A stretch of 64,000 nucleotides of DNA. Origin: a virus. The stretch spans positions 24,428 through 88,427 of IMG/VR virus record IMGVR_UViG_3300034198_015569; one strand, written 5' to 3'. Made by a program: the position numbers and the translations under genes. Numbering within the stretch: the stretch's first letter is position 1; the number at the start of each line of letters is the position of its first letter. Positions 732 through 52,295 of the stretch are shown piece by piece. The notes beneath the pieces are model-generated. The model had not been told where the DNA came from and did no database searches. It was given only the letters and a program-made list of their open reading frames with translations.

Positions 732-1017
732 ACACCATAAGTTGGAAATATGCAATTATAATGGAGAAATTAGTTCATTATATTTGAATGATTATAGAAT
801 TTCTGGCCCGAAGCCTTACGGTGGTGGAATTATTGTTAAGAATTTCAAAGTTACAAATAAAGATTTACTTAGTTCAATTCCTGAATACCAAAAAGTTTTA
901 GATGTTTTAAAAATGGCCTTGAAGGAACACGATTATAAGTGTACAATGCAAGTCACTTTTACAGAACCTCAATGGGTTCATGAAGCACGGGCCATTATTA
1001 AAGAAATCGAGGATTGA
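715..1017 (+). CDS. hypothetical protein
   Basis: Likely start MSKKNK at 715; overlaps neighbours in operon fashion. Confidence 0.55.
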   Translation: MSKKNKHHKLEICNYNGEISSLYLNDYRISGPKPYGGGIIVKNFKVTNKDLLSSIPEYQKVLDVLKMALKEHDYKCTMQVTFTEPQWVHEARAIIKEIED

Positions 1018-2114
1018 ATATGGGCAAAGAAAAGATTAAGTCCTACGAAGATGCAGTAATGGCTTATGTGATCAAGAATCATGGTGAAGCTCTGGCTAGC
1101 TGCATCCAAGACCCTGTGTATCATGCTGAAGGTAGCGTGTGGACGCATACGGTTCGTGTTTTGGAAGAAGTAAAGAAAATCTCTTCTCCTTCTGAAATGG
1201 AAACAATGGCTGTTGCTGCAATTCTTCATGATATTGCTAAGCCCGGCACTCGTGAAGAATACTTTGACGAATCTATGGGTAGGGTTCGTGTGAGCCACAA
1301 GCATCATGCCAAGCTTGGTGCCATCGATGCATGGAACATCATGTGGAAGCTCGGCCTGCCTCTCCAGATGCGTCTTGACGTGTACGCAATTATCCTCTGG
1401 CATCAAAAGGTTTTCCATACTTTCTATAAGAAGAAAGAAAAGATGGAAGAGGAGTTTGTTCGCTTCTCCATCATTGGTAATTGGGATCAACTGATTCGCT
1501 TTGCGCTGGCTGACACTCGTGGTCGAGACAATGTGAATAATGATGATACTGAAGATACCCTTGCGGCTTTGACTGAAGCTGTGAAGGAATTTGGTGTGTT
1601 TGATTATTCATATCCTTTCGAAACGCCAAATCATCGAATCACGGCTCTTGAAAGCAAGAATCGCTTTTATGTGCCCATCGATCCTCCTGGCGGTGTGATG
1701 CATATCATGAGCGGTCCTCCCGGTTCTGGTAAGGATACTTTTATCGAAAAGAATCTTCCTTATCCTGTTGTGTCTTTGGATTCTGTTCGTGGCGAGCTTG
1801 GTATTAAGCCTGATGGAAATCAGGGAAGGGTTATTCAGGAAGCACAAAAGCGTGTGAAGGAATATCTCGCCGCAAAGGAAACCTTTGTTCTTAATATCAC
1901 TGGCCTGCGTAAGGAGACCCGTGACAAGTGGACAACCCTTGCTCGTGATTATCATGCGTTCATTTCTTTTCATTGTATGAATACACCTTATGACAAGGCT
2001 GTAATTCAGAATACAAATCGAAAAGATTCTGTACCGCAGAATGCATGGGATAAGATGGTTTCTAAGTGGGAGCCTGTCACTCTGGAGGAAGGACATTTTG
2101 TTGAGTGGGTGTAA
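1014..2114 (+). CDS. HD-domain phosphoesterase fused to P-loop polynucleotide kinase (HD-Pnk-like RNA end-healing enzyme)
   Basis: HAEGSVWTHT...LHDIAKP HD motifs; C-terminal GPPGSGKDT Walker A and SLDSVR. Confidence 0.85.
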   Translation: MNMGKEKIKSYEDAVMAYVIKNHGEALASCIQDPVYHAEGSVWTHTVRVLEEVKKISSPSEMETMAVAAILHDIAKPGTREEYFDESMGRVRVSHKHHAKLGAIDAWNIMWKLGLPLQMRLDVYAIILWHQKVFHTFYKKKEKMEEEFVRFSIIGNWDQLIRFALADTRGRDNVNNDDTEDTLAALTEAVKEFGVFDYSYPFETPNHRITALESKNRFYVPIDPPGGVMHIMSGPPGSGKDTFIEKNLPYPVVSLDSVRGELGIKPDGNQGRVIQEAQKRVKEYLAAKETFVLNITGLRKETRDKWTTLARDYHAFISFHCMNTPYDKAVIQNTNRKDSVPQNAWDKMVSKWEPVTLEEGHFVEWV

Positions 2115-12816: not shown

Positions 12817-12891
12817 GCGGTTGTAGCTCAATGGTAGAGCAGGGCCTTCTAAACGCCATGGTAGTGGGTTCGAATCCCACCTACCGCACCA
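12817..12891 (+). tRNA. tRNA with CTA in anticodon register (possible amber suppressor; weak anticodon stem)
   Basis: 75-nt cloverleaf; loop TTCTAAA in canonical register, only 3 of 5 stem pairs. Confidence 0.55.
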
Positions 12892-25326: not shown

Positions 25327-25577
25327 ATTTTCTTATTGTGCGGCAATTGCCGAAAGTAGAGTCGTTCTCTACAATCCTAGAACGGATACTGCAATCTATC
25401 CCTAATAAGGAGGATTTCTTGAGCTTCGGCAAGACAGATATCTAGGGTGAGTTTTTGATATTTGAGCAATAAAGACTTGTTCTTGCGCTGCAAAAATCAA
25501 TTGTTTCTCTCCTCATTGAATGAATAAAAAACAAGAAAGCCGTTCTGTTAAATTAAATTATGAACTTGTGAGGAAAA

Positions 25578-36625: not shown

Positions 36626-36673
36626 AGAACGATTTCAGCACTTAAACGCTTGGTATGCAAAAAAGTCGTTCTG
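36626..36673 (+). ncRNA. Y-RNA-like cassette 1
   Basis: AGAACGATTT-CAGCA...AAGTCGTTCT-G. Confidence 0.6.
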
Positions 36674-36694
36674 TTAAACAAAAGGAATATTTAA

Positions 36695-38110
36695 ATGAAT
36701 ACTTTCGCACGTAATGTAGCATCAAACGTTGGTGCCTCTTCTCCTAAGATTGCTAAGACCCGCACTGAAAATGGTGCAGTTGCTTACACTTCATCCGGCA
36801 AGGCCAATCTTGATTTGTTTGCTGCAATTGGCGCAGCCCGCTCCCGTGATCTAACCAATGATTTCAAGGCGGCTCTTAATGAGAATCCTGAATTGGCAAC
36901 ACGTATCCTTCTATGGGCTCGTGATTGTCGTGGTGGTGCTGGTGAACGTTCAACCCCTCGCAAGCTTCTAGCTGTGCTTGAGACTGTAGACGTTGAACTA
37001 GCAGAGAAGGTGCTTCGTAAGCTACCAGAACTTGGCCGTTGGGATGACCTTCTAGATAGCGTTAAGACCCCTCGCCTTCGTGAGATTGGTTTCGGCCTAA
37101 TCCGTGACGCTTTGGCGGCTGGTAACGGTCTGTGCGCAAAGTGGATGCCACGTAAGGGTGATGAGGCTATCCAGCTTCGTTCATTCCTTGGTTGGTCTCC
37201 TAAGCGTTACCGTAAGACCCTGGTTTCACTAACCAAGGTTGTAGAACAGCAAATGTCTGCTAAGCAGTGGAGTGAGATTAAGTATCAATCCGTTCCTTCT
37301 GTTGCCATGGCACGCTCGATGAAGGCTTTCAGCCGTAACGATACTGTTCGTTTTGGCGAATACTTAAATAGAGTAAAAAAGGGCGAAACAAAGATTAATG
37401 CCTCTGTGGTATTCCCACATGACATTATTCGCTCTCTAAAGAGCGGACAAACTGCCGGTGCGGATGCTCAATGGAATGCATTGCCTGATTTTGTTGCATC
37501 GGACGAAAACTTTCTTCCAATTTGTGACGTATCAGGATCAATGAGTGTAGCTGTATCGGGTACGGTTTCTGCACTAGACGTTTGTCTTGGTCTTGGTCTG
37601 TATCTTTCAGAACGTGGTAAAGGTGCCTTTAAGGATATCTTTATGACTTTCTCTGCCCGCCCAACTCTTCAGAAGGTAAGTGGTTCACTAAGTGAACGTA
37701 TGAACCAAATGAATCGTGGTGCTTGGGATATGAACACGGACATGGAAGCTGCATTTAATGCTGTACTAGATCACGGTATTAAGTACAAAGTTCCGCAGGC
37801 AGATATGCCAACCACACTTATTGTCTTCTCCGATATGGAGTTTGATCAGTGTATTCGTAATGGAAATGATACCATCTATCGCAATATGCGTAAGCGTTTT
37901 GCTGATGCTGGTTACAATGTTCCTAAGGTTGTGTTTTGGAATCTTAATTCCAGAAATAAGCAGTTCCCTGTAACTGCAAAAGACCCAAACACTGCACTAG
38001 TGTCAGGCTTCAACCCAATTCTTGTTAAGAATCTTCTTGGCAAGGCGAATATCACTCCAGAACAAGTAATGCTTGACACTGTCATGGTAGAGCGTTATAA
38101 TCTAGATTGA
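36695..38110 (+). CDS. Ro60/TROVE-related (DUF2828-like) protein with C-terminal vWA domain
   Basis: TENGA, RDCRGGAGER, GRWDDL, AKWMPR; vWA MIDAS DVSGSM, SDMEFD, VFWNL. Confidence 0.8.
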   Translation: MNTFARNVASNVGASSPKIAKTRTENGAVAYTSSGKANLDLFAAIGAARSRDLTNDFKAALNENPELATRILLWARDCRGGAGERSTPRKLLAVLETVDVELAEKVLRKLPELGRWDDLLDSVKTPRLREIGFGLIRDALAAGNGLCAKWMPRKGDEAIQLRSFLGWSPKRYRKTLVSLTKVVEQQMSAKQWSEIKYQSVPSVAMARSMKAFSRNDTVRFGEYLNRVKKGETKINASVVFPHDIIRSLKSGQTAGADAQWNALPDFVASDENFLPICDVSGSMSVAVSGTVSALDVCLGLGLYLSERGKGAFKDIFMTFSARPTLQKVSGSLSERMNQMNRGAWDMNTDMEAAFNAVLDHGIKYKVPQADMPTTLIVFSDMEFDQCIRNGNDTIYRNMRKRFADAGYNVPKVVFWNLNSRNKQFPVTAKDPNTALVSGFNPILVKNLLGKANITPEQVMLDTVMVERYNLD

Positions 38111-38145
38111 GAGTAGGGGATTCGTTCCCTACTTTCCTTAAGTTT

Positions 38146-38205
38146 AGGGCAATTTCAGCAAACATTTTAAATTTTTCTTTGTACGAAAAACTAAAAGTTG
38201 CCCTG
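38146..38205 (+). ncRNA. Y-RNA-like cassette 2 (anticodon-like hairpin TGT)
   Basis: AGGGCAATTT-CAGCA...AAGTTGCCCT-G; TTTTTC-TTTGTAC-GAAAAA. Confidence 0.65.
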
Positions 38206-38211
38206 TAATTA

Positions 38212-38275
38212 AGAACAATTTCAGCAAGTATTTAATACTTTTCCGCCAACAATTGGAAAATAAAACGTTGTTCTG
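38212..38275 (+). ncRNA. Y-RNA-like cassette 3 (acceptor-stem mimic)
   Basis: AGAACAATTT-CAGCA...GTTGTTCT-G; TTTTCC-GCCA...GGAAAA. Confidence 0.6.
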
Positions 38276-38293
38276 TTAAAATAAAGGATTATT

Positions 38294-38548
38294 ATGAATT
38301 TAGATGATGTTACTGCTGGTAATATGCGAACACTTTCCGAAAGATCGCTTCTTACTTTAAAAGAGGATGAATTTAGGAAAATTCGAAATCTTATTCATAA
38401 TGCGGCAAATTCTGGTGCATATTATATTCAATGTGATATAAAGTATCCAGAAACAGAGAATATGTTAAAAGATTTAGGTTTTAAGTTTAAAATTATGACC
38501 TTTAATAAAGATGTTACCACGTATAAAATTACATGGTGGATTGATTAA
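38294..38548 (+). CDS. hypothetical protein
   Basis: AAGGA RBS; embedded in cassette array. Confidence 0.6.
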   Translation: MNLDDVTAGNMRTLSERSLLTLKEDEFRKIRNLIHNAANSGAYYIQCDIKYPETENMLKDLGFKFKIMTFNKDVTTYKITWWID

Positions 38549-38554
38549 GAATTG

Positions 38555-38678
38555 AGAACCATTTCAGCAAATTTACTTTTATTTGCCTACGAAGCAAAAG
38601 GTGTCGGTTCGAGCCCGGCCCACCACACCAACTATGTGGTGGTAGTTTAATTGGATAGAACTTTATAAGGTGGTTCTG
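38555..38678 (+). ncRNA. Y-RNA-like cassette 4 containing circularly permuted tRNA-Arg(ACG)
   Basis: Order: anticodon arm, T arm, 3' acceptor plus ACCA, 5' acceptor, D arm, inside AGAACCA/TGGTTCT stem. Confidence 0.75.
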
Positions 38679-38695
38679 ATAAAAGATTAGAATTA

Positions 38696-38751
38696 AGAAC
38701 GATTTCAGCAACTTAAAAATTTCACTGTTAATGAAAACCAAAGTCGTTCTG
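38696..38751 (+). ncRNA. Y-RNA-like cassette 5 (anticodon-like hairpin GTT)
   Basis: AGAACGATTT-CAGCA...AAGTCGTTCT-G; TTTCA-CTGTTAA-TGAAA. Confidence 0.65.
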
Positions 38752-38760
38752 ATAAAATTT

Positions 38761-38870
38761 AGGATATTTTCAGCAATCTAAATTTCAAACAATGTAACAT
38801 GGGTTCGAATCCCATACATTCGAAAGAATGTTAGCCAAGTGGTAAGGCAATTGTCAAAAAAGTTATCCTG
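38761..38870 (+). ncRNA. Y-RNA-like cassette 6 (YrlA-type: T arm, capped acceptor, D arm)
   Basis: ATGGG-TTCGAAT-CCCAT, ACATTC-GAAA-GAATGT, TAGCCAAGTGGTAAGGC. Confidence 0.75.
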
Positions 38871-38981
38871 TTAAAATTATGGGCAAGACCCGAAATTCTT
38901 ATGCGTCGGGAGATATTACAAGCGTGTTAATGGGGGCTATGTAATAATTAAATTTCCGGTTGACAAAAAATTAACTTGGTG

Positions 38982-38989
38982 TATAAATA
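38982..38989 (+). promoter_or_regulatory. T4-type late promoter
   Basis: TATAAATA before tRNAs; TTGACA upstream. Confidence 0.6.
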
Positions 38990-38998
38990 ATAGAATAT

Positions 38999-39073
38999 TG
39001 CTGGCGGGAGGTTTAGAATCTCATTGGTCTCATAAACCAAAGAACTGGTGCAAATCCATGGCTTCAGCAACCA
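38999..39073 (+). tRNA. atypical tRNA(CAT)
   Basis: TTGGT-CTCATAA-ACCAA; degenerate T arm; ACCA. Confidence 0.55.
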
Positions 39074-39079
39074 ATTTAA

Positions 39080-39165
39080 TGCGGGGACAAGCCGGAGTGG
39101 CTAACTAGCCTCATAAGCTAGAGATTAATTTCTAATGGAATGTGCAACTCATTCCCCCGCAACCA
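39080..39165 (+). tRNA. fMet-like tRNA(CAT) with extended variable region
   Basis: TGCGGGG/CCCCGCA-ACCA; CTAGC-CTCATAA-GCTAG. Confidence 0.7.
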
Positions 39166-39336
39166 ACACGGTAAGGTTTACTATTCTTATCCCATATAAT
39201 GGTGTGATATTAATGGGTAAATCATATTGACGGCGAGGGCAAAGATCAAAGCGGGAAACCGGCACATTCGTTGTTCTATTTGAGGATAGACTTTGTGGGG
39301 GCCAGTCAATAATTATTTTAAAAGGTTAAACATTGA

Positions 39337-39831
39337 GTGTTTTGTTTAAATTGTAATAAAGAAACAAAGAATCCAAAATATTGTTGTAGATCATGTTCTG
39401 TATCTAAAAATAATTTAGGCGTACAAAGAAATAAACCAGTTGACAAAATATGTTTAAACTGTAGTAATAAAGTAAAACGAAATAAATCGAAATTTTGTTC
39501 TATGGAATGTTCCTTAAATTATAAGGCTATAGAAAAGAGAAGAGAAGTTTTAAGTAATCTTGAAAATGGAAAATATATTTCATTTAAGCAACTTAGAGCA
39601 CTTCTGTTAGATACATATAAAACTTGTCAAGAATGTAATATTGAACCTATATGGAATAATAAACCATTAAGTTTTCAAATAGATCATATTGACGGAAATA
39701 GTGATAATAATGACATTAAAAATTTACGGGTATTGTGTCCTAATTGTCATACACAAACTATAACATGGTGTTCAAGAAATATAAAAAACACCAAACGTAA
39801 TAAATATCTTAGAAGATATAAGGCTCCTTAG
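39337..39831 (+). CDS. HNH homing endonuclease
   Basis: Zn fingers; IDHIDGN..NN..NLRVLCPNCH; stop lies inside tRNA-Val. Confidence 0.85.
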   Translation: MFCLNCNKETKNPKYCCRSCSVSKNNLGVQRNKPVDKICLNCSNKVKRNKSKFCSMECSLNYKAIEKRREVLSNLENGKYISFKQLRALLLDTYKTCQECNIEPIWNNKPLSFQIDHIDGNSDNNDIKNLRVLCPNCHTQTITWCSRNIKNTKRNKYLRRYKAP

Positions 39832-39895
39832 TTAAAAAGGATAACATCTCTTTTACACGGAGAATTCGGCGGGGCGGTACCGTCAGGAGCTACCA
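39822..39895 (+). tRNA. tRNA-Val(TAC)
   Basis: TCTCT-TTTACAC-GGAGA; CCA. Confidence 0.8.
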
Positions 39896-39950
39896 AAATT
39901 TAAGAACAAGAAAGCGGCCATAATGCCGCTTTTCTTTTAAGTGGAGTAAT

Positions 39951-40523
39951 ATGAATACACATAAAGATTACGAAGTTTTTAGATCGCCACTTTTTGTATA
40001 TAAATGTTTATATGATAATTATCCTAATTTAATTAAAGGTGATGTATTGGACCCATCCGCAGGTGATGGAAGAATGATTTTAGAATTAATAAACCGTGGG
40101 AATAATAATAAACACATGTTGTGTGATATTCGAGAAGAAGAAATTACTACATGGAAAAACATTCCTTCTTTTATAAATGCTGAATTTAAAATTGGCAACT
40201 TTCTTGAAATTGAATCATTTCGTAAATTTGACTCAATTATCACCAATCCACCATTTACACTCACTGTACCCTTTATTGAACATGGTATGAAGTGGTTAAA
40301 AGACAATGGTAATATAGCCATTCTTCAAAGATCAAATTGGTTAGGAACATATAAACGAAGTCAGTGGCTTAAACAGTCAGGACTTAGATACGTTTTGGTA
40401 ATCCCTAAACGTCCCATATGGGAGATTGATGGGCGGGATAATCGCTCTGATACATATGAATATTTCTGGTTTATTTTTCAAAAAGGTTATACCGGATTAC
40501 CTGAAGTTGATTGGCTCTTATAA
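39951..40523 (+). CDS. DNA amino-methyltransferase (N6-adenine type)
   Basis: LDPSAGDG motif I; ITNPPF motif IV. Confidence 0.85.
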   Translation: MNTHKDYEVFRSPLFVYKCLYDNYPNLIKGDVLDPSAGDGRMILELINRGNNNKHMLCDIREEEITTWKNIPSFINAEFKIGNFLEIESFRKFDSIITNPPFTLTVPFIEHGMKWLKDNGNIAILQRSNWLGTYKRSQWLKQSGLRYVLVIPKRPIWEIDGRDNRSDTYEYFWFIFQKGYTGLPEVDWLL

Positions 40524-40740
40524 TAATTTCTTTTTGTCAAGATAAATACTTTTAAAATGAACATAATAAAAAATATTTTACTCGTAATTGGGCTATTGAT
40601 TTTTGGGATAGGATTGGTATTATTAGCCATCGTCGCTTTGGTTCCACTGATTCTAATTATTATTTCTCTAATAATAATGAAATTTGGAATTAGAGAGACA
40701 TGGGGAACGTTTTAATGTAAATGTGAGGGGAAGTTTTAGT

Positions 40741-41196
40741 ATGATTAAGCATAAGTATTTTGAAATTTCTAATGCTGACATTGACAATAACTTTGGTCTA
40801 TTTCGATCTTTGGCCCGCAATAATATCTACTCATCTGATGGAGTTTTTGAACAAACTTGGAATTATCCTAACGATACTATTCCAAATAAAGTTTATATGT
40901 CTGTAGCATTTATTGGCGAAGAGCCTCTTGCTGTTGCCATGGTAAACAAAAAGGTATATTATGGGTGGGAATTTACCAACTATGATATCAAGAAAACCGA
41001 TGGAATGTTTGGAGTTTTTGTGCATCCTCTCCATCGGCTACGTGGACTTGGCGAATATACTACGAATCATTTGTTTAAGAATTCTAACCTACGTCAAGTT
41101 TCTTTGGTGGGGGGAACTGCTGAAAGAATCGTTAAAAACGTAACTCCTGTAATGAAGTATATTCGGGCAGACGTTTTTAGCTCTATTTTGGCATAA
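40741..41196 (+). CDS. GNAT-like protein
   Basis: FVHPLHRLRGLG acetyl-CoA motif A. Confidence 0.55.
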   Translation: MIKHKYFEISNADIDNNFGLFRSLARNNIYSSDGVFEQTWNYPNDTIPNKVYMSVAFIGEEPLAVAMVNKKVYYGWEFTNYDIKKTDGMFGVFVHPLHRLRGLGEYTTNHLFKNSNLRQVSLVGGTAERIVKNVTPVMKYIRADVFSSILA

Positions 41197-41243
41197 GATG
41201 AATAAAAAGAGTTGGTAGGGGAGTGTCCCCTACCCAAGAGTTT

Positions 41244-41367
41244 AGGACTATTTCAGCAAATAATAGCTTTGGAAAAACCTTGTGTCGGCGGTTCAAATCC
41301 GTCTCTCCCGCCCAATCGGGAGATAGCTCAGTCTGGTAGAGCAAAGGATAGCAAAAAAGTAGTCCTG
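41244..41367 (+). ncRNA. Y-RNA-like cassette 7 (YrlA-type)
   Basis: AGGACTATTT-CAGCA...AAGTAGTCCT-G; GGCGG-TTCAAAT-CCGTC, TCTCCCG/CGGGAGA, TAGCTCAGTCTGGTAGAGC. Confidence 0.75.
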
Positions 41368-41645: not shown

Positions 41646-41712
41646 TTTTTCTTTAAATCAATATACTAGAAAGGGGTTTTCTAGTATTCTTTAATGCAAA
41701 GGAGTTTTGCAC

Positions 41713-42825
41713 ATGTCTAAAAAGTTCAAGTTGGCCGTTTTCATTGGCCGTTTCCAGCCACTTCATAATGAGCACGTTCGCAATATTCAAACGTGTCTAG
41801 ATGTAGCCGACAAGGCTCTAATTCTTATTGGTGGCGCCAATCTTTCCCGTTCTCCTAAGAATCCTTTTACGTTCGCTGAACGTCGAGATATTATCTATAA
41901 TCATTTTTATCGTAAAATGTCTTTGGATGATATCCTTCCTTGTAATGAATATCAGTCTGATGATGATCGTTGGGCGGCAGAGGTTCAAAAGACCGTCTAT
42001 GGTCTTGGATACAAGGATGAAGATGTAACTCTTGTGGGTTGCAATAAGGATAATTCTTCATTCTATTTGAAGATGTTCCCTGGTTGGAAGGGAACCAATG
42101 TACCATTCCTTAAGAATATCAATGCGACTGATGTTCGTAATGATTTCTATAATTATGGTAACATTAATGTAAACCTTTCTCAGGAACTTCCTACTAGCAC
42201 CATTGATTTTCTTAATGATTTCTATTTCAACAAAAAGGAAATCTATGATTGGTTGGTGGATTGGCATAATTATGATCAGTCCATTGTGTGGATGAAGAAG
42301 CCCGTCGCTGATCTTGATACATTGATCAAGCTCTTCAATCAAAGTCAGAAGGCGGGGAAGGATTTTTATTTTACAAATTATCCAATCCAAACGCCTTGTG
42401 TTGATGCAGTTGTTACACAGTCGAATCATATTCTTTTGGTTGAAAGAAAGAACCATCCTGGCAAGGGGCTTTTGGCTCTTCCTGGCGGCCACCGAAATGA
42501 AGATGAGCGGGATATTGATGCTGCTGTTCGTGAGCTTCGGGAAGAGACTTGCATTGCGGATCGATACGGGGAAATTCCTCCTGGCAAGCTGAAGGATTTC
42601 ATTGTAAATCCTCAAGGTTTGAACGTGGATTGTCCCTGGCGTTCGGAAAGAGGCCGTGTGACCTCTACCGCATTTCATTTCAAGCTTCCTGATGTTACCA
42701 AGCTGTATAAGGTAACGGGAACTGATGATGCGGCAACTGCTAAGTGGTATCCTCTAGGTACTCTTAAGGATAATGATTTCTTTGAAGATCACAGAGATAT
42801 CATCCGTCAGATTTTGGGATTTTGA
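41713..42825 (+). CDS. nadM: bifunctional NMN adenylyltransferase / Nudix ADP-ribose pyrophosphatase
   Basis: GRFQPLHNEH, KNPFT; Nudix box PGG...AAVRELREET. Confidence 0.9.
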   Translation: MSKKFKLAVFIGRFQPLHNEHVRNIQTCLDVADKALILIGGANLSRSPKNPFTFAERRDIIYNHFYRKMSLDDILPCNEYQSDDDRWAAEVQKTVYGLGYKDEDVTLVGCNKDNSSFYLKMFPGWKGTNVPFLKNINATDVRNDFYNYGNINVNLSQELPTSTIDFLNDFYFNKKEIYDWLVDWHNYDQSIVWMKKPVADLDTLIKLFNQSQKAGKDFYFTNYPIQTPCVDAVVTQSNHILLVERKNHPGKGLLALPGGHRNEDERDIDAAVRELREETCIADRYGEIPPGKLKDFIVNPQGLNVDCPWRSERGRVTSTAFHFKLPDVTKLYKVTGTDDAATAKWYPLGTLKDNDFFEDHRDIIRQILGF

Positions 42826-43653: not shown

Positions 43654-45063
43654 TTGCAAATGCGTAATAATATTCTACTATTTACTGATAGCTACAAATT
43701 TTCTCACTACAAGCAATATCCCGAAGGCACTAAGTTTGTTTCTTCATACATTGAGTCCCGTGGCGGCATGTATGATAAGACTTTGTTCTTTGGCCTTCAG
43801 ATGTTCTTGAAGGAATATTTTTCTAAGCCTTTTTCTCTTGAAGATATTGAAGAATATGATGAGCTTTGTAGAGCCCATGGTTTTGAGCCTAATACCAATG
43901 ATTGGCTCGCCATTTACAATAAGTATAACGGTTATCTGCCCGTTGAAATTCAGGCAGTGAAGGAAGGAACCGTTGTTGACGGAAAGAATGTTCTTGTTCA
44001 GATTAAGAACACGGACCCTAATTATCCTTGGCTTACGTCTTATCTTGAGACTTGTATTCTTCAAGCAATTTGGTATCCCGTGACGGTTGCAACTCGTTCT
44101 TGGACCATTAAGCAGAAGATCAAGGCGGCTCTTGAAAAGACTTCTGACAATGCAGCCGCAGTGCTCCCGTTCCGTCTACATGACTTTGGCGAACGTGGTG
44201 TTTCTTCTCGCGAATCGGCTGGTATTGGTGGGTGTGCTCACCTTGTCAACTTCATGGGAACCGACACGGTAGAAGGCTTGCGTTATGCCCGCCGCTACTA
44301 TGGAGAGATGATGGCAGGATATTCTATTCCTGCCACGGAGCACTCTGTGTCTACTTCCTATGGCCCTGGAAAGGGCGAATATGATTATGTTGATCGTATT
44401 CTTACCAATCTAGAGAATGCTCCTAATGGTAGCTTGCATGCCATTGTGGCGGATACGTATGACGTATACAATTTCTGTGAAAATATCCTTGGAGGCGATA
44501 CCTTCCGCGATCGTATTAAGGCTCTTGCAGAAAAGAATAAGGTTCTTGTGCCTCGCCCTGATAGTGGTGATCCTATACTTGTTCCTGTAAAGGTTATTGA
44601 AATCCTTGGAGAAAAGTTCGGTTATACCGTTAATTCTAAGGGATTCAAGGTTCTTCACCATGCCGTTCGTGTAATCCAGGGTGACGGTATGAATGACGAA
44701 TCTGTTGAGATTCTTTTCTGCAACTTGATTGTTAAGGGATGGTCTCTCGAAAACATCGCCTTCGGTATGGGTGGTAAGCTTCTTCAGGGACTTGACCGAG
44801 ATACTTTGAAGTTTGCAATGAAGTGTTCGGCAGTTAAGGGTGAGCATGATTATGACTGGCGCCCTGCTTTTAAAGACCCTATTACCGATAAGGGTAAGAA
44901 GTCTAAGAAGGGCCGCCTTGGTCTTGTAATGAAGGAAGGTAAGTATATTACTGTTTCTGAAGTTGAGGCAGGTAAGAACAATCTTCTAGAGGTTGTGTAT
45001 CGAGACGGTAAACTTCTGCGAAATCAGTCGTTCACGGAAATTCGAGCAATTTCTAATAGTTAA
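43654..45063 (+). CDS. nadV: nicotinamide phosphoribosyltransferase (NAMPT)
   Basis: TDSYKFSH, LHDFG.RG, PATEHS, RPDSGDP, IQGDG, GMGG.LLQ. Confidence 0.92.
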   Translation: MQMRNNILLFTDSYKFSHYKQYPEGTKFVSSYIESRGGMYDKTLFFGLQMFLKEYFSKPFSLEDIEEYDELCRAHGFEPNTNDWLAIYNKYNGYLPVEIQAVKEGTVVDGKNVLVQIKNTDPNYPWLTSYLETCILQAIWYPVTVATRSWTIKQKIKAALEKTSDNAAAVLPFRLHDFGERGVSSRESAGIGGCAHLVNFMGTDTVEGLRYARRYYGEMMAGYSIPATEHSVSTSYGPGKGEYDYVDRILTNLENAPNGSLHAIVADTYDVYNFCENILGGDTFRDRIKALAEKNKVLVPRPDSGDPILVPVKVIEILGEKFGYTVNSKGFKVLHHAVRVIQGDGMNDESVEILFCNLIVKGWSLENIAFGMGGKLLQGLDRDTLKFAMKCSAVKGEHDYDWRPAFKDPITDKGKKSKKGRLGLVMKEGKYITVSEVEAGKNNLLEVVYRDGKLLRNQSFTEIRAISNS

Positions 45064-45147: not shown

Positions 45148-46332
45148 ATGAGCAAGTTTGAAGTTCCTGTTGTACGTGTATCTAAAGTAACTGACCACGA
45201 AAATGCGGATAGACTTTCACTCGTTTACTTTAATGGTTTCATTACCATTTCAGCCAAGCTAGATGATGGTTCCCATCGTTATAAGGTTGGCGATCTAGTC
45301 GTTTATGTTCCAGAAGGCGCAATCGTTCCTGAATATCTTCTTCGTCAGGGATTTTGGGATTCTGAAAAAGAAAAAGGAATTCTTGCTGGCACCAAGGGAA
45401 ACCGTGTCAAGGCAAAATCGCTTAGAGGTGTCATTTCTCAGGGAATTATGTTTCCTGTAGAATATTCAAAGAAGTTTGAAGGGGATGAAGGTATTCCGAC
45501 TGTATTCAATGATACTGATGGTACCTTGATCGTGTGTGAAGGCACGAACGTTGCTGAATTTCTCGGTATCCAGAAATGGGAACCTGAAATTCCAACTAAC
45601 TTTGCTGGCGACGTGATTAATGTTGGAACCCACAATACTGTGGATTTTGATATTGAAAACCTTCAGAAGTATCCTGACACATTCCTGGCAACAGACGATG
45701 TTGTTGTAACCGAAAAGCTTCATGGAACCTGTGCTATCTATGGATGGCTTGGTGATTTTGATGACGCTGATCTATATAAGAACAATATGTATTCTTCTTC
45801 AAAGGGAATGGCTAGTAAGGGACTTGTTTTCAAGTTTAACCAGTCAAATCAGGAGCGTAATCTTTATACCCGTATGGGTGTAGAGCTTAAGATTTTTGAC
45901 CAGTTGGAATTGATTGTTGAAGTTCTAAAGAAGAAGTATACTGTCATCAATAAGGTTGTTCTTCTCGGGGAAATCTTCGGTAGAGGTGTGCAGGACTTGC
46001 ACTATGGTCTCGGCAAGCCTTCATTTCGTGCCTTTGAAATCTTTGTTGATGCTGAAACAGCAGGAGGCGAGCGTTTCATTGGTTGGGTTGATAACTATAA
46101 ATATGAACTAATGTTCTTTGGTGACATTGATCCAGTTCCTATTCTATATCGTGGTAAGTTTGATCTTACTAAGATGGAAGAACTTCGCACTGGAGAAGCT
46201 TCTATTGGCGGCGGACATGTCAAGGAAGGTGTTGTTATTACACGCTTCAATGATGATGGAACCCGCACCATTATGAAGTTCATCAATCCTTCGTATTTGA
46301 CACGTAAGGGTGAAGTAACCGAATTCAATTAA
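45148..46332 (+). CDS. RNA ligase, DRB0094 family
   Basis: N-terminal OB HENADRL...RGVISQG; TEKLHGT, GEIFG.G.Q, EGVV. Confidence 0.85.
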   Translation: MSKFEVPVVRVSKVTDHENADRLSLVYFNGFITISAKLDDGSHRYKVGDLVVYVPEGAIVPEYLLRQGFWDSEKEKGILAGTKGNRVKAKSLRGVISQGIMFPVEYSKKFEGDEGIPTVFNDTDGTLIVCEGTNVAEFLGIQKWEPEIPTNFAGDVINVGTHNTVDFDIENLQKYPDTFLATDDVVVTEKLHGTCAIYGWLGDFDDADLYKNNMYSSSKGMASKGLVFKFNQSNQERNLYTRMGVELKIFDQLELIVEVLKKKYTVINKVVLLGEIFGRGVQDLHYGLGKPSFRAFEIFVDAETAGGERFIGWVDNYKYELMFFGDIDPVPILYRGKFDLTKMEELRTGEASIGGGHVKEGVVITRFNDDGTRTIMKFINPSYLTRKGEVTEFN

Positions 46333-51170: not shown

Positions 51171-52295
51171 GTGATAATGTTTCCAAAAATTAAACATATA
51201 AATGACGTTCTTCCATATATTCAAGGTAAAACTGAATTTATTGTTGCGGAGCGTGAAGATTATACTGTTATTGATTATGTAGTGCAAAAGGGCGATACTT
51301 TTGTTGCTGAAGATGCATATGCTGAAAGCATTCTTCGTGAATGCCGTGGTATTGTCTTTGACAAGTCTGGTAATCTAATTCGCCGCCCTCTACACAAGTT
51401 TGATAATTTGAATCAAAATGAAGCTGCACATTATTCTAATGTTGATTGGGATAGTGAACATGTTCTTTGGGAAAAAATGGATGGCAGTATGATTGCCCCA
51501 ATTCCTATTGATGGAGATTTCCGTCTAGGCACTCGTATGGGTGTTACTGATGTTGCAATACAGGCTGAAAAATGGCTATCAGCGGATCATACCAGCTTTA
51601 TCAATACTTCAATTAAAATTGGTATGACACCAATTTTTGAATATATTGGGCCTGATAATCGTATTGTTATCCGATATGATGAACCACAATTGGTATTGCT
51701 CGCATTGCGTTATAATGAGACTGGTGAATATTATAGTCCTGACTACTTGAAAAATGTGGCAGATTGCTATAAGATTCCTGTTGCTCGTTCTTATGGTTCT
51801 GTAAAGGAAATCAAATCCTTTCTTGAAATCGCCCAAAAGGAAGAAGACAAGGAAGGTTATGTGGTTGCCTTTGCAACTGGTGAACGATACAAGATCAAGA
51901 ATGAACTTTATCTTAATCTACATAAATCTAAGGATTTGATGCAGTCTAAGAGAAATATTGTTCTTCGTGTCTTGGATAACACCATTGATGACTTGAAGGG
52001 ACTTTTGTTTGATTCAAATGATCTAGCTGAAGCTATTCGAGTTGAAAAGCGCACATGGGAACTTGTTGATAGCCATACAGATTTCATTCAATTTGCATAT
52101 AATTCTGCCCGTGAGAAATATGTAGATAAGAAAGATGTGGCGTTGAATGGTGATCAAACCAGAGAAACCAAATCTTACATTTTCGCAATGTGGGATGGTA
52201 AGAAAACCGCCAGAGACCTAGCGATTGAAGATATTCGATCAAATTGTTCTCAGGATAAGGTTTACAATGAGAAGCTGTCATCCATGATTGGGTGA
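51171..52295 (+). CDS. RNA ligase 1 (T4 Rnl1-like)
   Basis: RECRGIVF, HKFDNL, EKMDGS, FEYIGP.NRIV, EGYV, KIKN. Confidence 0.85.
   Translation: MIMFPKIKHINDVLPYIQGKTEFIVAEREDYTVIDYVVQKGDTFVAEDAYAESILRECRGIVFDKSGNLIRRPLHKFDNLNQNEAAHYSNVDWDSEHVLWEKMDGSMIAPIPIDGDFRLGTRMGVTDVAIQAEKWLSADHTSFINTSIKIGMTPIFEYIGPDNRIVIRYDEPQLVLLALRYNETGEYYSPDYLKNVADCYKIPVARSYGSVKEIKSFLEIAQKEEDKEGYVVAFATGERYKIKNELYLNLHKSKDLMQSKRNIVLRVLDNTIDDLKGLLFDSNDLAEAIRVEKRTWELVDSHTDFIQFAYNSAREKYVDKKDVALNGDQTRETKSYIFAMWDGKKTARDLAIEDIRSNCSQDKVYNEKLSSMIG

What the first reader, a model, noticed from the sequence alone, without database searches (positions are those of the whole stretch)
36626..41367. Ro60/TROVE gene surrounded by seven Y-RNA-like cassettes, each displaying a different tRNA module
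Seen: seven elements (36626, 38146, 38212, 38555, 38696, 38761, 41244) share an AG-initiated 5' stem arm, then TTTCAGCA, a variable cargo, and a complementary 3' arm ending CTG. The closing stem co-varies (AGAACGA/TCGTTCT, AGGGCAA/TTGCCCT, AGGACTA/TAGTCCT, AGAACCA/TGGTTCT) while CAGCA stays invariant. This pattern fits a conserved RNA structure with a protein-binding motif. The cargos are 7-nt anticodon-like loops, an acceptor-end mimic, two T/acceptor/D modules and a whole permuted tRNA. Known: bacterial Ro60 (Rsr) binds Y RNAs, and YrlA RNAs carry a tRNA-like T/acceptor/D domain. Inference: a modular phage RNP system in which the TROVE-vWA protein loads a panel of tRNA-mimic RNAs, for example as decoys for host anticodon nucleases or as tethers for RNA repair. 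Cassette 1 sits in the 5' UTR of the TROVE gene and could autoregulate it.
Basis: partly seen in the sequence, partly recalled or inferred. Interest (0 to 1): 0.93.

Follow-up and report, generated by a model that had tools for sequence, protein, structure and literature searches.

The report
Phage Ro60-like gene with tRNA-mimic RNAs
A phage gene for a ring-shaped RNA-binding protein of the Ro60 type is surrounded by eight small RNA genes that share one constant stem-and-motif handle and each carry a different piece of a tRNA, and the same arrangement turns up in very different phages, which points to a widespread, so far undescribed RNA-protein system.

Summary
Each has a 7-bp closing helix (AG-N5 / N5-CU, then G), the motif UUUCAGCA(A), a variable cargo and an A-rich 3' strand.

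The gene at 36695-38110 is Pfam DUF2828 + DUF7788, not Pfam TROVE. Its AlphaFold model nevertheless matches only Ro60 structures at the top of a PDB fold search.

The RNA module is a real family tied to this gene:
- 66 of 84 phage loci carrying a homologue have it on the gene strand: 146 hits, against 3 on the opposite strand.
- It occurs in phages of E. coli, Listeria, Staphylococcus, Campylobacter, Mycobacterium and cyanobacteria.
- It is absent from T4 and T5, which lack the gene.

Cargos are tRNA parts: anticodon stem-loop mimics, T/acceptor/D modules and a whole permuted tRNA. A short copy sits just before the gene's start codon in 52 of 117 loci.

It works like a Ro60-Y RNA particle but is not a YrlA member: the binding motif differs and the Rfam threshold is not met. 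Protein binding, discrete RNAs and function (decoy or tether in conflicts over tRNA) are inferred, not shown.

The module also resembles Dictyostelium Class I RNA below threshold. Verdict: new variant of a known kind, high interest.

The parts
25379..25547 (+). Probable eighth element (169 nt): AGAACGG-AUACUGCAA...AGAAAG-CCGUUCU-G, followed by UUAA; cargo of unknown structure
   Evidence: Descriptor hits; sequence; lies between genes; cargo fold no better than shuffles
36626..36673 (+). Element 1, the leader copy (48 nt), ending 21 nt before the ATG of the DUF2828 gene
   Evidence: CM R1 33.9 bits (in training set); leader position conserved in 52 of 117 loci
36695..38110 (+). Gene for a 471-aa DUF2828 + DUF7788 protein with the Ro60 fold: helical ring plus vWA domain, with MIDAS residues D278, S280, S282
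   Evidence: Pfam and PHROG 850; AF2 pLDDT 88.5; the 12 best Foldseek PDB hits (ranks 1-13) are all Ro60; invariant columns
38073..38101 (+). Promoter-like site TTGACA-17-TATAAT (12 of 12) in the gene's 3' end, ahead of elements 2 and 3
   Evidence: consensus match only; promoter-like sites as a whole are not above shuffles
38109..38136 (+). Terminator-like hairpin after the gene's stop codon
38146..38205 (+). Element 2 (60 nt): cargo is a 5-bp stem with 7-nt loop UUUGUAC (anticodon-like UGU)
   Evidence: RF01414 19.7 bits; R1 53 bits (in training set)
38212..38275 (+). Element 3 (64 nt): cargo is two small hairpins
   Evidence: R1 46.1 bits (in training set)
38555..38678 (+). Element 4 (124 nt): a whole circularly permuted tRNA. 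It has an anticodon arm with loop CUACGAA, a T arm, an acceptor stem capped by a loop containing ACCA, and a D arm; the ends lie between the D arm and the anticodon arm
   Evidence: Rfam YrlA 28.7 bits and tRNA 25.2 bits, both below threshold
38696..38751 (+). Element 5 (56 nt): cargo is a 5-bp stem with loop CUGUUAA (anticodon-like GUU)
   Evidence: RF01414 24.3 bits; R1 56 bits (in training set)
38761..38870 (+). Element 6 (110 nt): T arm, acceptor hairpin capped by GAAA, and D arm
   Evidence: YrlA 25.2 bits; R1 37.2 bits although not in the training set
41244..41367 (+). Element 7 (124 nt): T arm, 7-bp acceptor stem whose capping loop contains CCCA, and D arm
   Evidence: z -3.4; YrlA 38.9 bits

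Best explanation
The locus encodes a Ro60-type ribonucleoprotein system of a branch not described before.

The 471-aa DUF2828/DUF7788 protein is a structural Ro60 paralogue: a helical ring plus a vWA domain with a MIDAS site. The eight elements are genes, or processed segments, for small RNAs built on one constant handle. That handle is a 7-bp helix joining the 5' and 3' ends (A-U and G-C at its outer end, with a 3' G after it), followed on the 5' strand by N-U-W-CAGCAA and on the 3' strand by an A-rich stretch. By analogy with Y RNAs, the handle is the protein's binding site.

The variable cargo displays parts of a tRNA: anticodon stem-loops, the T/acceptor/D body, or a whole permuted tRNA. 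The particle therefore presents tRNA look-alikes. Most likely it holds or diverts enzymes that recognise tRNA (anticodon nucleases, repair or modification enzymes), or it tethers the ring to them during infection. The short cargo-less copy next to the ribosome-binding site probably lets the protein repress its own translation.

Shown here: sequence and structure conservation, linkage to the gene, the protein fold, and the tRNA-like cargos. Inferred: that discrete RNAs are made, that the protein binds them, and both functions.
For: - Protein. AF2 model pLDDT 88.5. The 12 best Foldseek PDB hits (ranks 1-13) are Ro60 from Thermus phage phiLo, Xenopus, human and Deinococcus, with E 8e-9 to 8e-6 and TM 0.5-0.64 over the full length. 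The MIDAS DxSxS residues are invariant in 51 sequences.
- RNA family. In 84 loci with a homologue, a descriptor found 146 hits on the gene strand and 3 on the opposite strand; 66 of 84 loci have at least one. In the 80 IMG/VR loci there were 140 hits, against 0-7 in five shuffles, with median distances of 144 nt (upstream) and 175 nt (downstream) from the gene and 50 distinct arms. Positions the descriptor did not impose are conserved, for example U two nt before CAGCA in 125 of 133.
- Reverse test. Of 94 matches to the 5' half alone in IMG/VR, 64 have the complementary 3' arm. Of those 64, 43 have the gene within 6 kb, all on the same strand. Of the 30 without the arm, 0 do. Five of 5 'orphan' records tested carry the gene elsewhere.
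- Whole genomes. Elements lie only beside the gene in wV8, P100, LeBron and this contig. T4 and T5 lack the gene and show only background hits.
- Covariance model. In 622 kb of independent phage DNA, all 10 hits at E<=1 lie beside DUF2828 genes, and none is in T4 or T5.
- Cargo. 42 of 146 short cargos have a 5-bp/7-nt hairpin with a YU-NNN-RN loop, against a shuffle mean of 0.6 and maximum of 2; 36 of the 42 read CU...AA. Elements 4, 6 and 7 get sub-threshold YrlA hits. A circularly permuted form, with the handle in place of a tRNA's anticodon arm, occurs in 10 or more loci.
- Leader copy. 52 of 117 loci have an element ending 10-60 nt (median 15) before the ATG. These are short: median 55 nt against 118 nt for the others.
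- Context. The gene sits inside tRNA clusters. RNA ligases and a kinase-like gene lie in the window, and RtcB lies beside the gene in Listeria phage P100.
- Precedent. Phage Ro60 with adjacent Y-like RNAs is known in mycobacteriophages, CcrColossus and phage G (PMC4201824, passages and Table S2) and in phiLo (PMC12135203, passages).
Against: - No evidence of expression: no RNA run is listed for this sequence, and no ends are mapped.
- No binding data. The handle has no resemblance to the known Ro60 site (GNCGAA / GGUCCGA), so binding rests on linkage and analogy only.
- 18 of 84 homologue loci gave no descriptor hit.
- 21 of 64 full elements had no gene within 6 kb, and only 5 of those 21 were followed up.
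- The stem 'covariation' in the descriptor set is partly circular, because complementarity was a selection rule.
- Fold z-scores of single elements are modest (-1.4 to -3.4). Element 8's cargo is no better than shuffles.
- LeBron's three elements are missed by the covariance model.
- Promoter-like sites in the region are not above shuffles (19 against 20.5).
- The anticodon tally (UGU 12, UUU 6, GGA 4, ...) does not single out known nuclease targets.
Confidence: 0.75

Rival explanations
1. The elements are processing or stability signals of the tRNA-cluster transcripts, for example nuclease recognition hairpins that mark where precursor RNAs are cut. They act without the DUF2828 protein, and the link to the gene is only shared residence in tRNA regions.
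For: The gene and the elements sit among tRNA genes. The conserved flanks WW-AG and CUG-UU at the helix ends could be cleavage sites. Some elements lie 6-100 kb from the gene.
Against: T4 and T5 have tRNA clusters but neither the gene nor the elements. All 5 orphan records tested still carry the gene. A copy abuts the gene's own ribosome-binding site in 52 of 117 loci. LeBron has three elements directly after its DUF2828 gene with no tRNA gene annotated in the 9.4-kb stretch fetched around it.
Confidence: 0.1
2. They are ordinary members of the known YrlA / bacterial Y RNA family bound by a canonical Ro60, so nothing here is new.
For: Rfam YrlA aligns to elements 7, 4 and 6 (38.9, 28.7 and 25.2 bits). 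They lie on the same strand and within 3.3 kb of a protein with the Ro60 fold. Multi-copy cassettes beside a phage TROVE gene are in print for CcrColossus (PMC4201824 Table S2; about seven seen).
Against: The YrlA gathering score of 69 is not reached, and no YrlA hit at gathering was found in 16 related loci. The YrlA hits rest on the tRNA-like cargo; the alignments misplace the closing helix. The GNCGAAN0-1G motif is absent from the 5' strand and replaced by UWCAGCAA. Five of the eight elements have no T/acceptor/D module. Pfam TROVE is not hit, whereas the CcrColossus protein hits it at 1e-17. The CcrColossus cassettes do not match this descriptor or model.
Confidence: 0.1
3. The repeats act at the DNA level, as promoters, terminators, recombination sites or a small mobile element with inverted ends.
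For: Short inverted repeats flank a variable middle. Some copies follow terminator-like hairpins.
Against: The arms differ between copies yet stay complementary, across 50 distinct arms. There is a strict strand bias with the gene: 146 against 3. The cargos are tRNA-like RNA structures. The handle also occurs circularly permuted inside tRNA-like genes, which only makes sense at the RNA level.
Confidence: 0.03

Closest known systems
Bacterial and phage Ro60 (Rsr) with Y RNAs of the YrlA type (Chen et al. 2014, PMC4201824; Thermus phage phiLo Ro60-Yrl1/2, PMC12135203)
   Same: A ring-plus-vWA protein of the Ro60 fold. Small RNAs are encoded next to it on the same strand. Their 5' and 3' ends pair into a helix with a conserved motif on the 5' strand, and part of the RNA mimics the T arm, acceptor stem and D arm of tRNA. 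Several copies occur per locus.
   Different: The protein belongs to Pfam DUF2828/DUF7788, not TROVE. The conserved RNA motif is UWCAGCAA with an A-rich opposite strand, not GNCGAA/CGAA. Cargos also include bare anticodon stem-loop mimics, whole permuted tRNAs and near-empty leader copies. The handle can also replace the anticodon arm of an otherwise normal tRNA. No binding or PNPase data exist.
Dictyostelium Class I RNAs (Rfam RF01414; Kjellin et al. 2021, PMC7919456)
   Same: 42-65 nt RNAs with a 6-bp helix joining the ends and a conserved first G paired to the C of a terminal CUG(U). The motif (C)CUUACAGCAA sits directly after the 5' arm, and the rest is variable. Many phage copies read UUACAGCAA, and one aligns CUUACAGCAAUU letter for letter with the model consensus. 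RF01414 matches six phage elements over its full length at 19.7-30.7 bits.
   Different: The gathering score of 41.5 is never reached. The linker between helix and CAGCAA is one nt shorter. The phage RNAs lack the eukaryotic DUSE promoter and sit beside a Ro60-like gene. The known Class I binder is an RRM protein (Rnp1A). The paper states that Class I RNAs were found only in Dictyostelia; it searched eukaryotes and Myxococcus, not phages. Whether Dictyostelium has a DUF2828 protein could not be tested here.
Caulobacter phage CcrColossus TROVE locus
   Same: About seven tandem cassettes upstream of a 469-aa Ro60-type gene, each with a closing helix and mostly tRNA-like cargo. Three are listed as YrlA in PMC4201824 Table S2.
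   Different: The protein hits Pfam TROVE. The handle sequence is GGUGGCGUAG...ACUUCG / GUUCCCCCACC, not CAGCAA. This study's descriptor and covariance model found no hits there.

Membership tests
YrlA / bacterial Y RNA (Rfam RF02553) | Reaches Rfam's gathering score (69 bits) | tested here: not met
   Best 38.9 bits (element 7), then 28.7 and 25.2. No YrlA hit at gathering in 16 related loci; best there at the E-value threshold was 39.3 bits.
YrlA / bacterial Y RNA (Rfam RF02553) | GNCGAAN0-1G motif near the 5' end, the presumed Ro60 contact (PMC4201824) | tested here: not met
   The 5' strand after the helix reads UUUCAGCA(A) in 7 of 8 elements and AUACUGCAA in one. Family consensus is N-U-W-CAGCAA.
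YrlA / bacterial Y RNA (Rfam RF02553) | tRNA-like domain with T arm, acceptor stem and D arm | tested here: inconclusive
   Present in elements 4, 6 and 7; absent in elements 1, 2, 3 and 5; unknown for element 8.
YrlA / bacterial Y RNA (Rfam RF02553) | Encoded near a Ro60 orthologue and on the same strand | tested here: met
   Seven elements lie within 3.3 kb of the gene on the same strand. The same holds in 66 of 84 loci.
YrlA / bacterial Y RNA (Rfam RF02553) | Bound by the Ro60 protein in cells | not testable with these tools
   Needs immunoprecipitation or a gel-shift assay.
Ro60 / TROVE proteins | Match to Pfam TROVE (PF05731) | tested here: not met
   Only DUF7788 (2e-50) and DUF2828 (1e-32) are hit. 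The CcrColossus protein hits TROVE at 1e-17. No PDB hit by sequence.
Ro60 / TROVE proteins | Ro60 fold: helical-repeat ring closed by a vWA domain | tested here: met
   The 12 best Foldseek PDB hits (ranks 1-13) are all Ro60, with probability 1.00 and TM 0.5-0.64 over about 500 aligned columns. Model pLDDT 88.5.
Ro60 / TROVE proteins | vWA domain with MIDAS motif | tested here: met
   D278, S280, S282, T348 and D380 are invariant in 51 sequences. Homologues give weak VWA_2 matches.
Dictyostelium Class I RNA (Rfam RF01414) | Reaches Rfam's gathering score (41.5 bits) | tested here: not met
   19.7-30.7 bits on six phage elements. None at gathering in 16 loci. About 4 of some 15 short elements in the 8 loci were reported at E<=10.
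Dictyostelium Class I RNA (Rfam RF01414) | Short helix joining the 5' and 3' ends, with the first G paired to the C of a terminal CUG(U) | tested here: met
   AG-N5 ... N5-CUG(U/A) in all 8 window elements. U follows CUG in 88 of 140 family members.
Dictyostelium Class I RNA (Rfam RF01414) | 11-nt motif CCUUACAGCAA directly after the 5' arm (invariant U3, C6, C9, A10, A11 per PMC7919456) | tested here: inconclusive
   The phage consensus N-U-W-CAGCAA shares C6, C9, A10, A11 and one U. The linker is 1 nt shorter. The window has UUUCAGCAA; many relatives have UUACAGCAA.
Dictyostelium Class I RNA (Rfam RF01414) | Occurrence in Dictyostelia with an upstream DUSE promoter | tested here: not met
   These are phage loci with bacterial-type signals.

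The most novel reading that the evidence does not exclude
The CAGCAA handle is the signature of RNA partners of the whole DUF2828 branch of Ro60-like proteins, in eukaryotes as well as phages. On this reading, Dictyostelium Class I RNAs, abundant developmentally regulated RNAs with no known mechanism, are the same kind of molecule as these phage RNAs: Y-RNA-like ligands of a Ro60 paralogue. DUF2828 proteins of fungi and plants would then also have undiscovered small-RNA partners.
Probability: 0.2. Interest if true: 0.95.

Novelty: new variant of a known kind. Interest (0 to 1): 0.82.

Why it matters
Homologues of this gene are in 711 of 50,697 deposited phage genomes and in at least 585 IMG/VR contigs. 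They include well-used phages such as the Felix O1 relatives, Listeria P100, staphylococcal, campylobacter and cluster L mycobacterial phages. No paper in the searched library links DUF2828 to any RNA.

If the reading holds, it would mean three things:
- Hundreds of unannotated small-RNA genes can be placed at once with a simple descriptor.
- The Ro60-Y RNA principle extends to a second protein branch with a different RNA handle.
- Phages systematically display anticodon arms and tRNA bodies on a protein ring. That is a testable lead for how phages handle defences that cut or modify tRNA, and for what the tRNA-like part of Y RNAs is for.

The leader copy also offers a simple autoregulation model. 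The sub-threshold likeness to Dictyostelium Class I RNA gives a concrete hypothesis for a 20-year-old orphan RNA class.

Tried and rejected
- Rfam at gathering thresholds: nothing but tRNAs in the window and in 16 related loci.
- PDB search by sequence: no relevant hit.
- Megablast of the region against phages: no match.
- Sequencing runs: no RNA holder listed; two metagenome DNA runs of one study hold the stretch.
- Earlier findings of this scan: nothing on this system.
- Dictyostelium DUF2828, not settled:
  - The protein atlas gave only phage and bacterial clusters.
  - Paper searches for Dictyostelium with PF11443, or with TROVE/Ro60, found nothing useful.
  - Avesson et al. 2011, which lists the Class I RNA pull-down proteins, is not held.
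  - The supplements of PMC7919456 do not name those proteins; file 1 was not searched.
  - My last protein search used an alignment whose length class became 1823-5000 aa and found nothing, which is uninformative.
- A first hairpin-form scan had a coding error; it was corrected.
- The first collection pattern had too few specified bases; it was corrected.
- I did not use the count of structure pairs on the descriptor-selected alignment, because complementarity was a selection rule and the count would be circular.
- A look-alike in T5 (94185-94401, minus strand, 217 nt, AGAGCTT-AAGCAGCAA...AAGCTCT-G-TTA) was rejected as chance: the covariance model found no hit in T5 and T5 has no DUF2828 gene.
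- The hairpin-form hit at window 44698-44722 lies inside the NAMPT reading frame and lacks the A-rich strand and a T loop; it was rejected.

Full report
THE OBSERVATION

Each begins with AG plus five variable bases. TTTCAGCA follows (CAGCAA in six, CAGCAC in element 1), then a cargo of 25-101 nt, an A-rich run ending in G, the complement of the first arm ending in CT, a G, and then (T/A)TAA.

TTTCAGCA occurs 13 times in the window, against 4.62 +/- 2.01 in 100 shuffles; 1 of 100 shuffles reached 13. Seven of the eight + strand copies lie within 4.7 kb. All seven minimum-energy folds close the terminal helix, with z from -1.4 to -3.4.

A descriptor scan of the window and of the whole 88,427-nt contig found one more element with every hallmark, at 25379-25547, about 11 kb upstream. 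With relaxed rules the contig gives about 8 background hits per strand. None of these has the TTAA-type tail. So there are eight elements, not seven.

THE GENE

ORF 36695-38110 (471 aa) matches Pfam DUF7788 (2e-50) and DUF2828 (1e-32), and PHROG 850 'RNA-binding protein' (3e-147). It does not match Pfam TROVE, and it finds nothing in the PDB by sequence.

An AlphaFold2 model built on 51 sequences has pLDDT 88.5 and pTM 0.87. In a Foldseek search of the PDB, the 12 best hits (ranks 1-13) are all Ro60: Thermus phage phiLo, Xenopus, human and Deinococcus Rsr. E-values run from 8e-9 to 8e-6 and TM from 0.5 to 0.64 across the whole chain. After them come isolated vWA domains at E around 1e-2.

The MIDAS residues of the vWA domain (D278, S280, S282, T348, D380) are invariant. 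The protein is therefore a structural Ro60 paralogue of a separate sequence family. Homologues occur in 711 of 50,697 phage records, all below 60% identity, and in fungi.

THE ELEMENTS ARE A FAMILY TIED TO THIS GENE

I first read the flanks of three homologues.
- Synechococcus phage BUCT-ZZ01 has the same open-form elements upstream of the gene, for example AGGTTGC-CTGCAGCAA...GCAACCT-G-TTAA.
- Downstream of the gene, BUCT-ZZ01 has a circularly permuted form. Two tRNA-like genes carry A-rich/3'-arm/GUAA loop/5'-arm/AUUCUGCAA in place of the anticodon arm.
- Cronobacter phage S13 has the same permuted form. It is annotated there as a 121-nt 'tRNA-Ser' and a 'tRNA-OTHER'.

I then wrote a descriptor: AG+5 nt arm; C[AT]GCA starting 1-5 nt after the arm; a complementary arm followed by G; total length up to 260 nt.
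- On 84 loci with a homologue (4 named phages and the best 80 of 585 confirmed IMG/VR places), it gave 146 hits on the gene strand against 3 on the other. 66 of 84 loci have at least one hit on the gene strand, against 4 of 84 on the other.
- On the 80 IMG/VR loci it gave 140 hits, against 4, 7, 0, 0 and 5 in five shuffles. 77 lie upstream, 56 downstream and 7 overlap the gene. Median distances are 144 and 175 nt.
- There are 50 distinct 5' arms.
- Positions I did not impose are conserved: U at arm position 5 in 131 of 133 (paired with A in 133 of 140), U two nt before CAGCA in 125 of 133, and A after CAGCA in 112 of 133. The window's own arms have C-G where most relatives have that U-A.
- Because complementarity was a selection rule, I do not count the arm variety itself as independent proof. 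The strand bias, the shuffles and the unimposed positions are the evidence.

Reverse test. A 5'-half pattern alone (TAGGATNNNTACAGCAA) was searched in IMG/VR.
- Of 94 matches in those 80 loci, 64 have the complementary arm plus CTG within 300 nt.
- Of those 64, 43 have a DUF2828 homologue within 6 kb, all 43 on the same strand.
- Of the 30 matches without the arm, 0 do.
- Of the 21 full elements without a nearby gene, I followed up five that lie in large records. All five records encode the protein elsewhere, 6 to about 100 kb away. The other 16 were not followed up.

Whole genomes. T4 and T5 have no homologue, while wV8, P100 and LeBron have one each.
- A lineage-neutral descriptor gives only scattered background in T4 and T5: 5-8 hits per strand, mostly 150-310 nt long.
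- The true elements cluster beside the gene: four in wV8, three in P100, three in LeBron, eight in this contig.
- One T5 look-alike (94185-94401) is not supported by the covariance model.

Covariance model. I built it from 122 of the 141 short elements. Nineteen were left out: 16 from short-flank loci L167-L209 and 3 near-duplicates.
- In the window it recovers element 6, which was not in the training set, at 37.2 bits. Nothing else outside the elements scores above 16.2 bits.
- In 622 kb of DNA not used for training, all 10 hits at E<=1 lie beside DUF2828 genes: SEP9 2, P100 2, CPX 2, wV8 4.
- There are none in T4, T5 or the CcrColossus locus. LeBron's three GC-rich elements are missed.
- In LeBron the outer pair is U-A instead of A-U (UGAGCGC...GCGCUCA-G). 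In SEP9 the arms start AAG.

THE CARGOS

In the window:
- Elements 2 and 5 carry 5-bp stems with 7-nt loops UUUGUAC and CUGUUAA.
- Element 4 is a complete tRNA in permuted order: anticodon arm with loop CUACGAA, T arm, 7-bp acceptor stem capped by a loop containing ACCA, then D arm.
- Elements 6 and 7 are T/acceptor/D modules. Element 7's capping loop contains CCCA.
- Element 1 has only a 2-3 bp hairpin. The 'acceptor-end mimic' reading of element 3 is unsupported.

Family-wide there are 343 unique elements.
- 42 of 146 short cargos have a 5-bp/7-nt hairpin with a Y-U-NNN-R-N loop, against a shuffle mean of 0.6 and maximum of 2.
- 36 of the 42 read CU...AA.
- The 'anticodons' are UGU 12, UUU 6, GGA 4, GAA 3, GUU 3, UCU 3, GUA 2, GCU 2, GCA 2 and five singletons.
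- The hairpin form of the handle, capped by GNNA-type loops, occurs in 10 or more distinct loci, mostly between a D-loop-like GG and a T loop.

The family therefore presents either the anticodon arm, or the rest of the tRNA, or both, on one constant handle.

THE LEADER COPY

In 52 of 117 loci with a defined start, an element ends 10-60 nt (median 15) before the ATG of the DUF2828 gene. These copies are short, with a median of 55 nt against 118 nt for the others. Element 1 ends 21 nt before the ATG. This conserved placement against the ribosome-binding site supports, but does not prove, translational autoregulation.

COMPARISON WITH KNOWN SYSTEMS

Ro60 with adjacent Y-like RNAs is in print for several phages.
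- Cluster C mycobacteriophages, phage G and CcrColossus are covered in PMC4201824 (passages and Table S2 seen).
- Thermus phage phiLo has structure, binding and PNPase data in PMC12135203 (passages seen).
- A jumbo-phage survey notes ROT/TROVE proteins with a tRNA-like partner (PMC7824862, passage seen).

All of these rely on a GNCGAA/CGAA motif. CcrColossus, whose protein does hit Pfam TROVE, shows about seven cassettes with its own handle and no hit of my descriptor or model.

Here the Rfam YrlA model reaches only 38.9, 28.7 and 25.2 bits (69 needed), and through the tRNA-like cargo only. So this system works like Ro60-Y RNA but is not a member of YrlA, and the protein is not a Pfam TROVE member.

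No paper in the searched library links DUF2828 to RNA: 5 papers hold the word, and all are unrelated.

AN UNEXPECTED LIKENESS

The best Rfam family for the short elements is Dictyostelium Class I RNA (RF01414). It scores 24.3 and 19.7 bits in the window. In four of roughly 15 short elements of eight other loci it scores 30.7, 25.4, 24.4 and 23.0 bits. These matches are always full length and coincide with the descriptor's coordinates to within one base. One element aligns CUUACAGCAAUU letter for letter.

Class I RNAs are described as follows: start AAG, 6-bp terminal helix, 11-nt motif next to the 5' arm, variable remainder, end CUGU. They are said to be found only in Dictyostelia (PMC7919456, passages seen). 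That study searched eukaryotes and Myxococcus, not phages.

The gathering score of 41.5 is never reached, and the linker is one nt shorter. Because the phage elements are related to each other, the repeated hits are not independent. I could not establish whether Dictyostelium has a DUF2828 protein. I rate real kinship at about 0.2.

CONTEXT AND MECHANISM

The gene lies in a region with 17 or more tRNA genes. The window also holds two RNA ligases, a kinase/nucleotidyltransferase-like gene and NAD salvage genes. In Listeria phage P100 an RtcB-type ligase and a phosphohydrolase follow the gene.

This fits a role in conflicts over tRNA. Two versions are possible: a decoy or trap for enzymes that recognise anticodon arms or tRNA bodies, or a tether that brings such enzymes or damaged tRNAs to the ring. 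The data do not decide between them, and the anticodon tally does not single out known nuclease targets.

No RNA data exist for this sequence. Expression, ends, binding and function all remain to be shown.

VERDICT

This is a new variant of the Ro60-Y RNA kind, widespread in phages and apparently undescribed.

Noticed in passing
window 39822-39892; 38993-39070; 39081-39166: Rfam calls a tRNA at 39822-39892 (42.1 bits). ARAGORN missed it, and it overlaps the end of the HNH endonuclease ORF 39337-39831. Two further tRNA-like stretches ending in ACCA lie at about 38993-39166; only a sub-threshold tRNA hit (18.4 bits) covers the first.
   Followed up: no
window 12817-12891: tRNA with anticodon CUA, called 'tRNA-Pyl' by ARAGORN. 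This is an amber-suppressor type tRNA in a phage whose ORFs here read normally in code 11.
   Followed up: no
window 1014-2114, 45148-46332, 51171-52295, 41707-42825, 43654-45063: The window holds an RNA repair and NAD salvage set: a polynucleotide kinase / nucleotidyltransferase-like gene, two RNA ligases (one like T4 Rnl1), an NMN adenylyltransferase-NUDIX gene and a nicotinamide phosphoribosyltransferase gene.
   Followed up: partly
L004 (Caulobacter phage CcrColossus) 4460-5640, minus strand: About seven tandem cassettes with the handle GGUGGCGUAG...ACUUCG / GUUCCCCCACC lie upstream of the TROVE gene. The 2014 paper's table lists three YrlA RNAs there.
   Followed up: partly
IMG/VR record G003, 114275-115267 and 116404-116772 (minus strand): The DUF2828 homologue is in two pieces about 1.1 kb apart. 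This could be an inserted element or an intron.
   Followed up: no
L213 (Listeria phage P100) 6078-8021: A metal-dependent phosphohydrolase and an RtcB-type 'tRNA splicing ligase' follow the DUF2828 gene, recalling the bacterial rsr-yrlBA-rtcBA arrangement.
   Followed up: no
L022 120-407: A permuted tmRNA gene (Rfam 76.7 bits) lies in a phage contig that also carries the DUF2828 system.
   Followed up: no
L002 (Cronobacter phage S13) 7857-8099; L003 7580-7830: Genes deposited as 'tRNA-Ser' (121 nt) and 'tRNA-OTHER' (113 nt) are tRNA bodies whose anticodon arm is replaced by the CAGCA handle capped with a GNNA-type loop. They are likely misannotated as tRNAs.
   Followed up: yes
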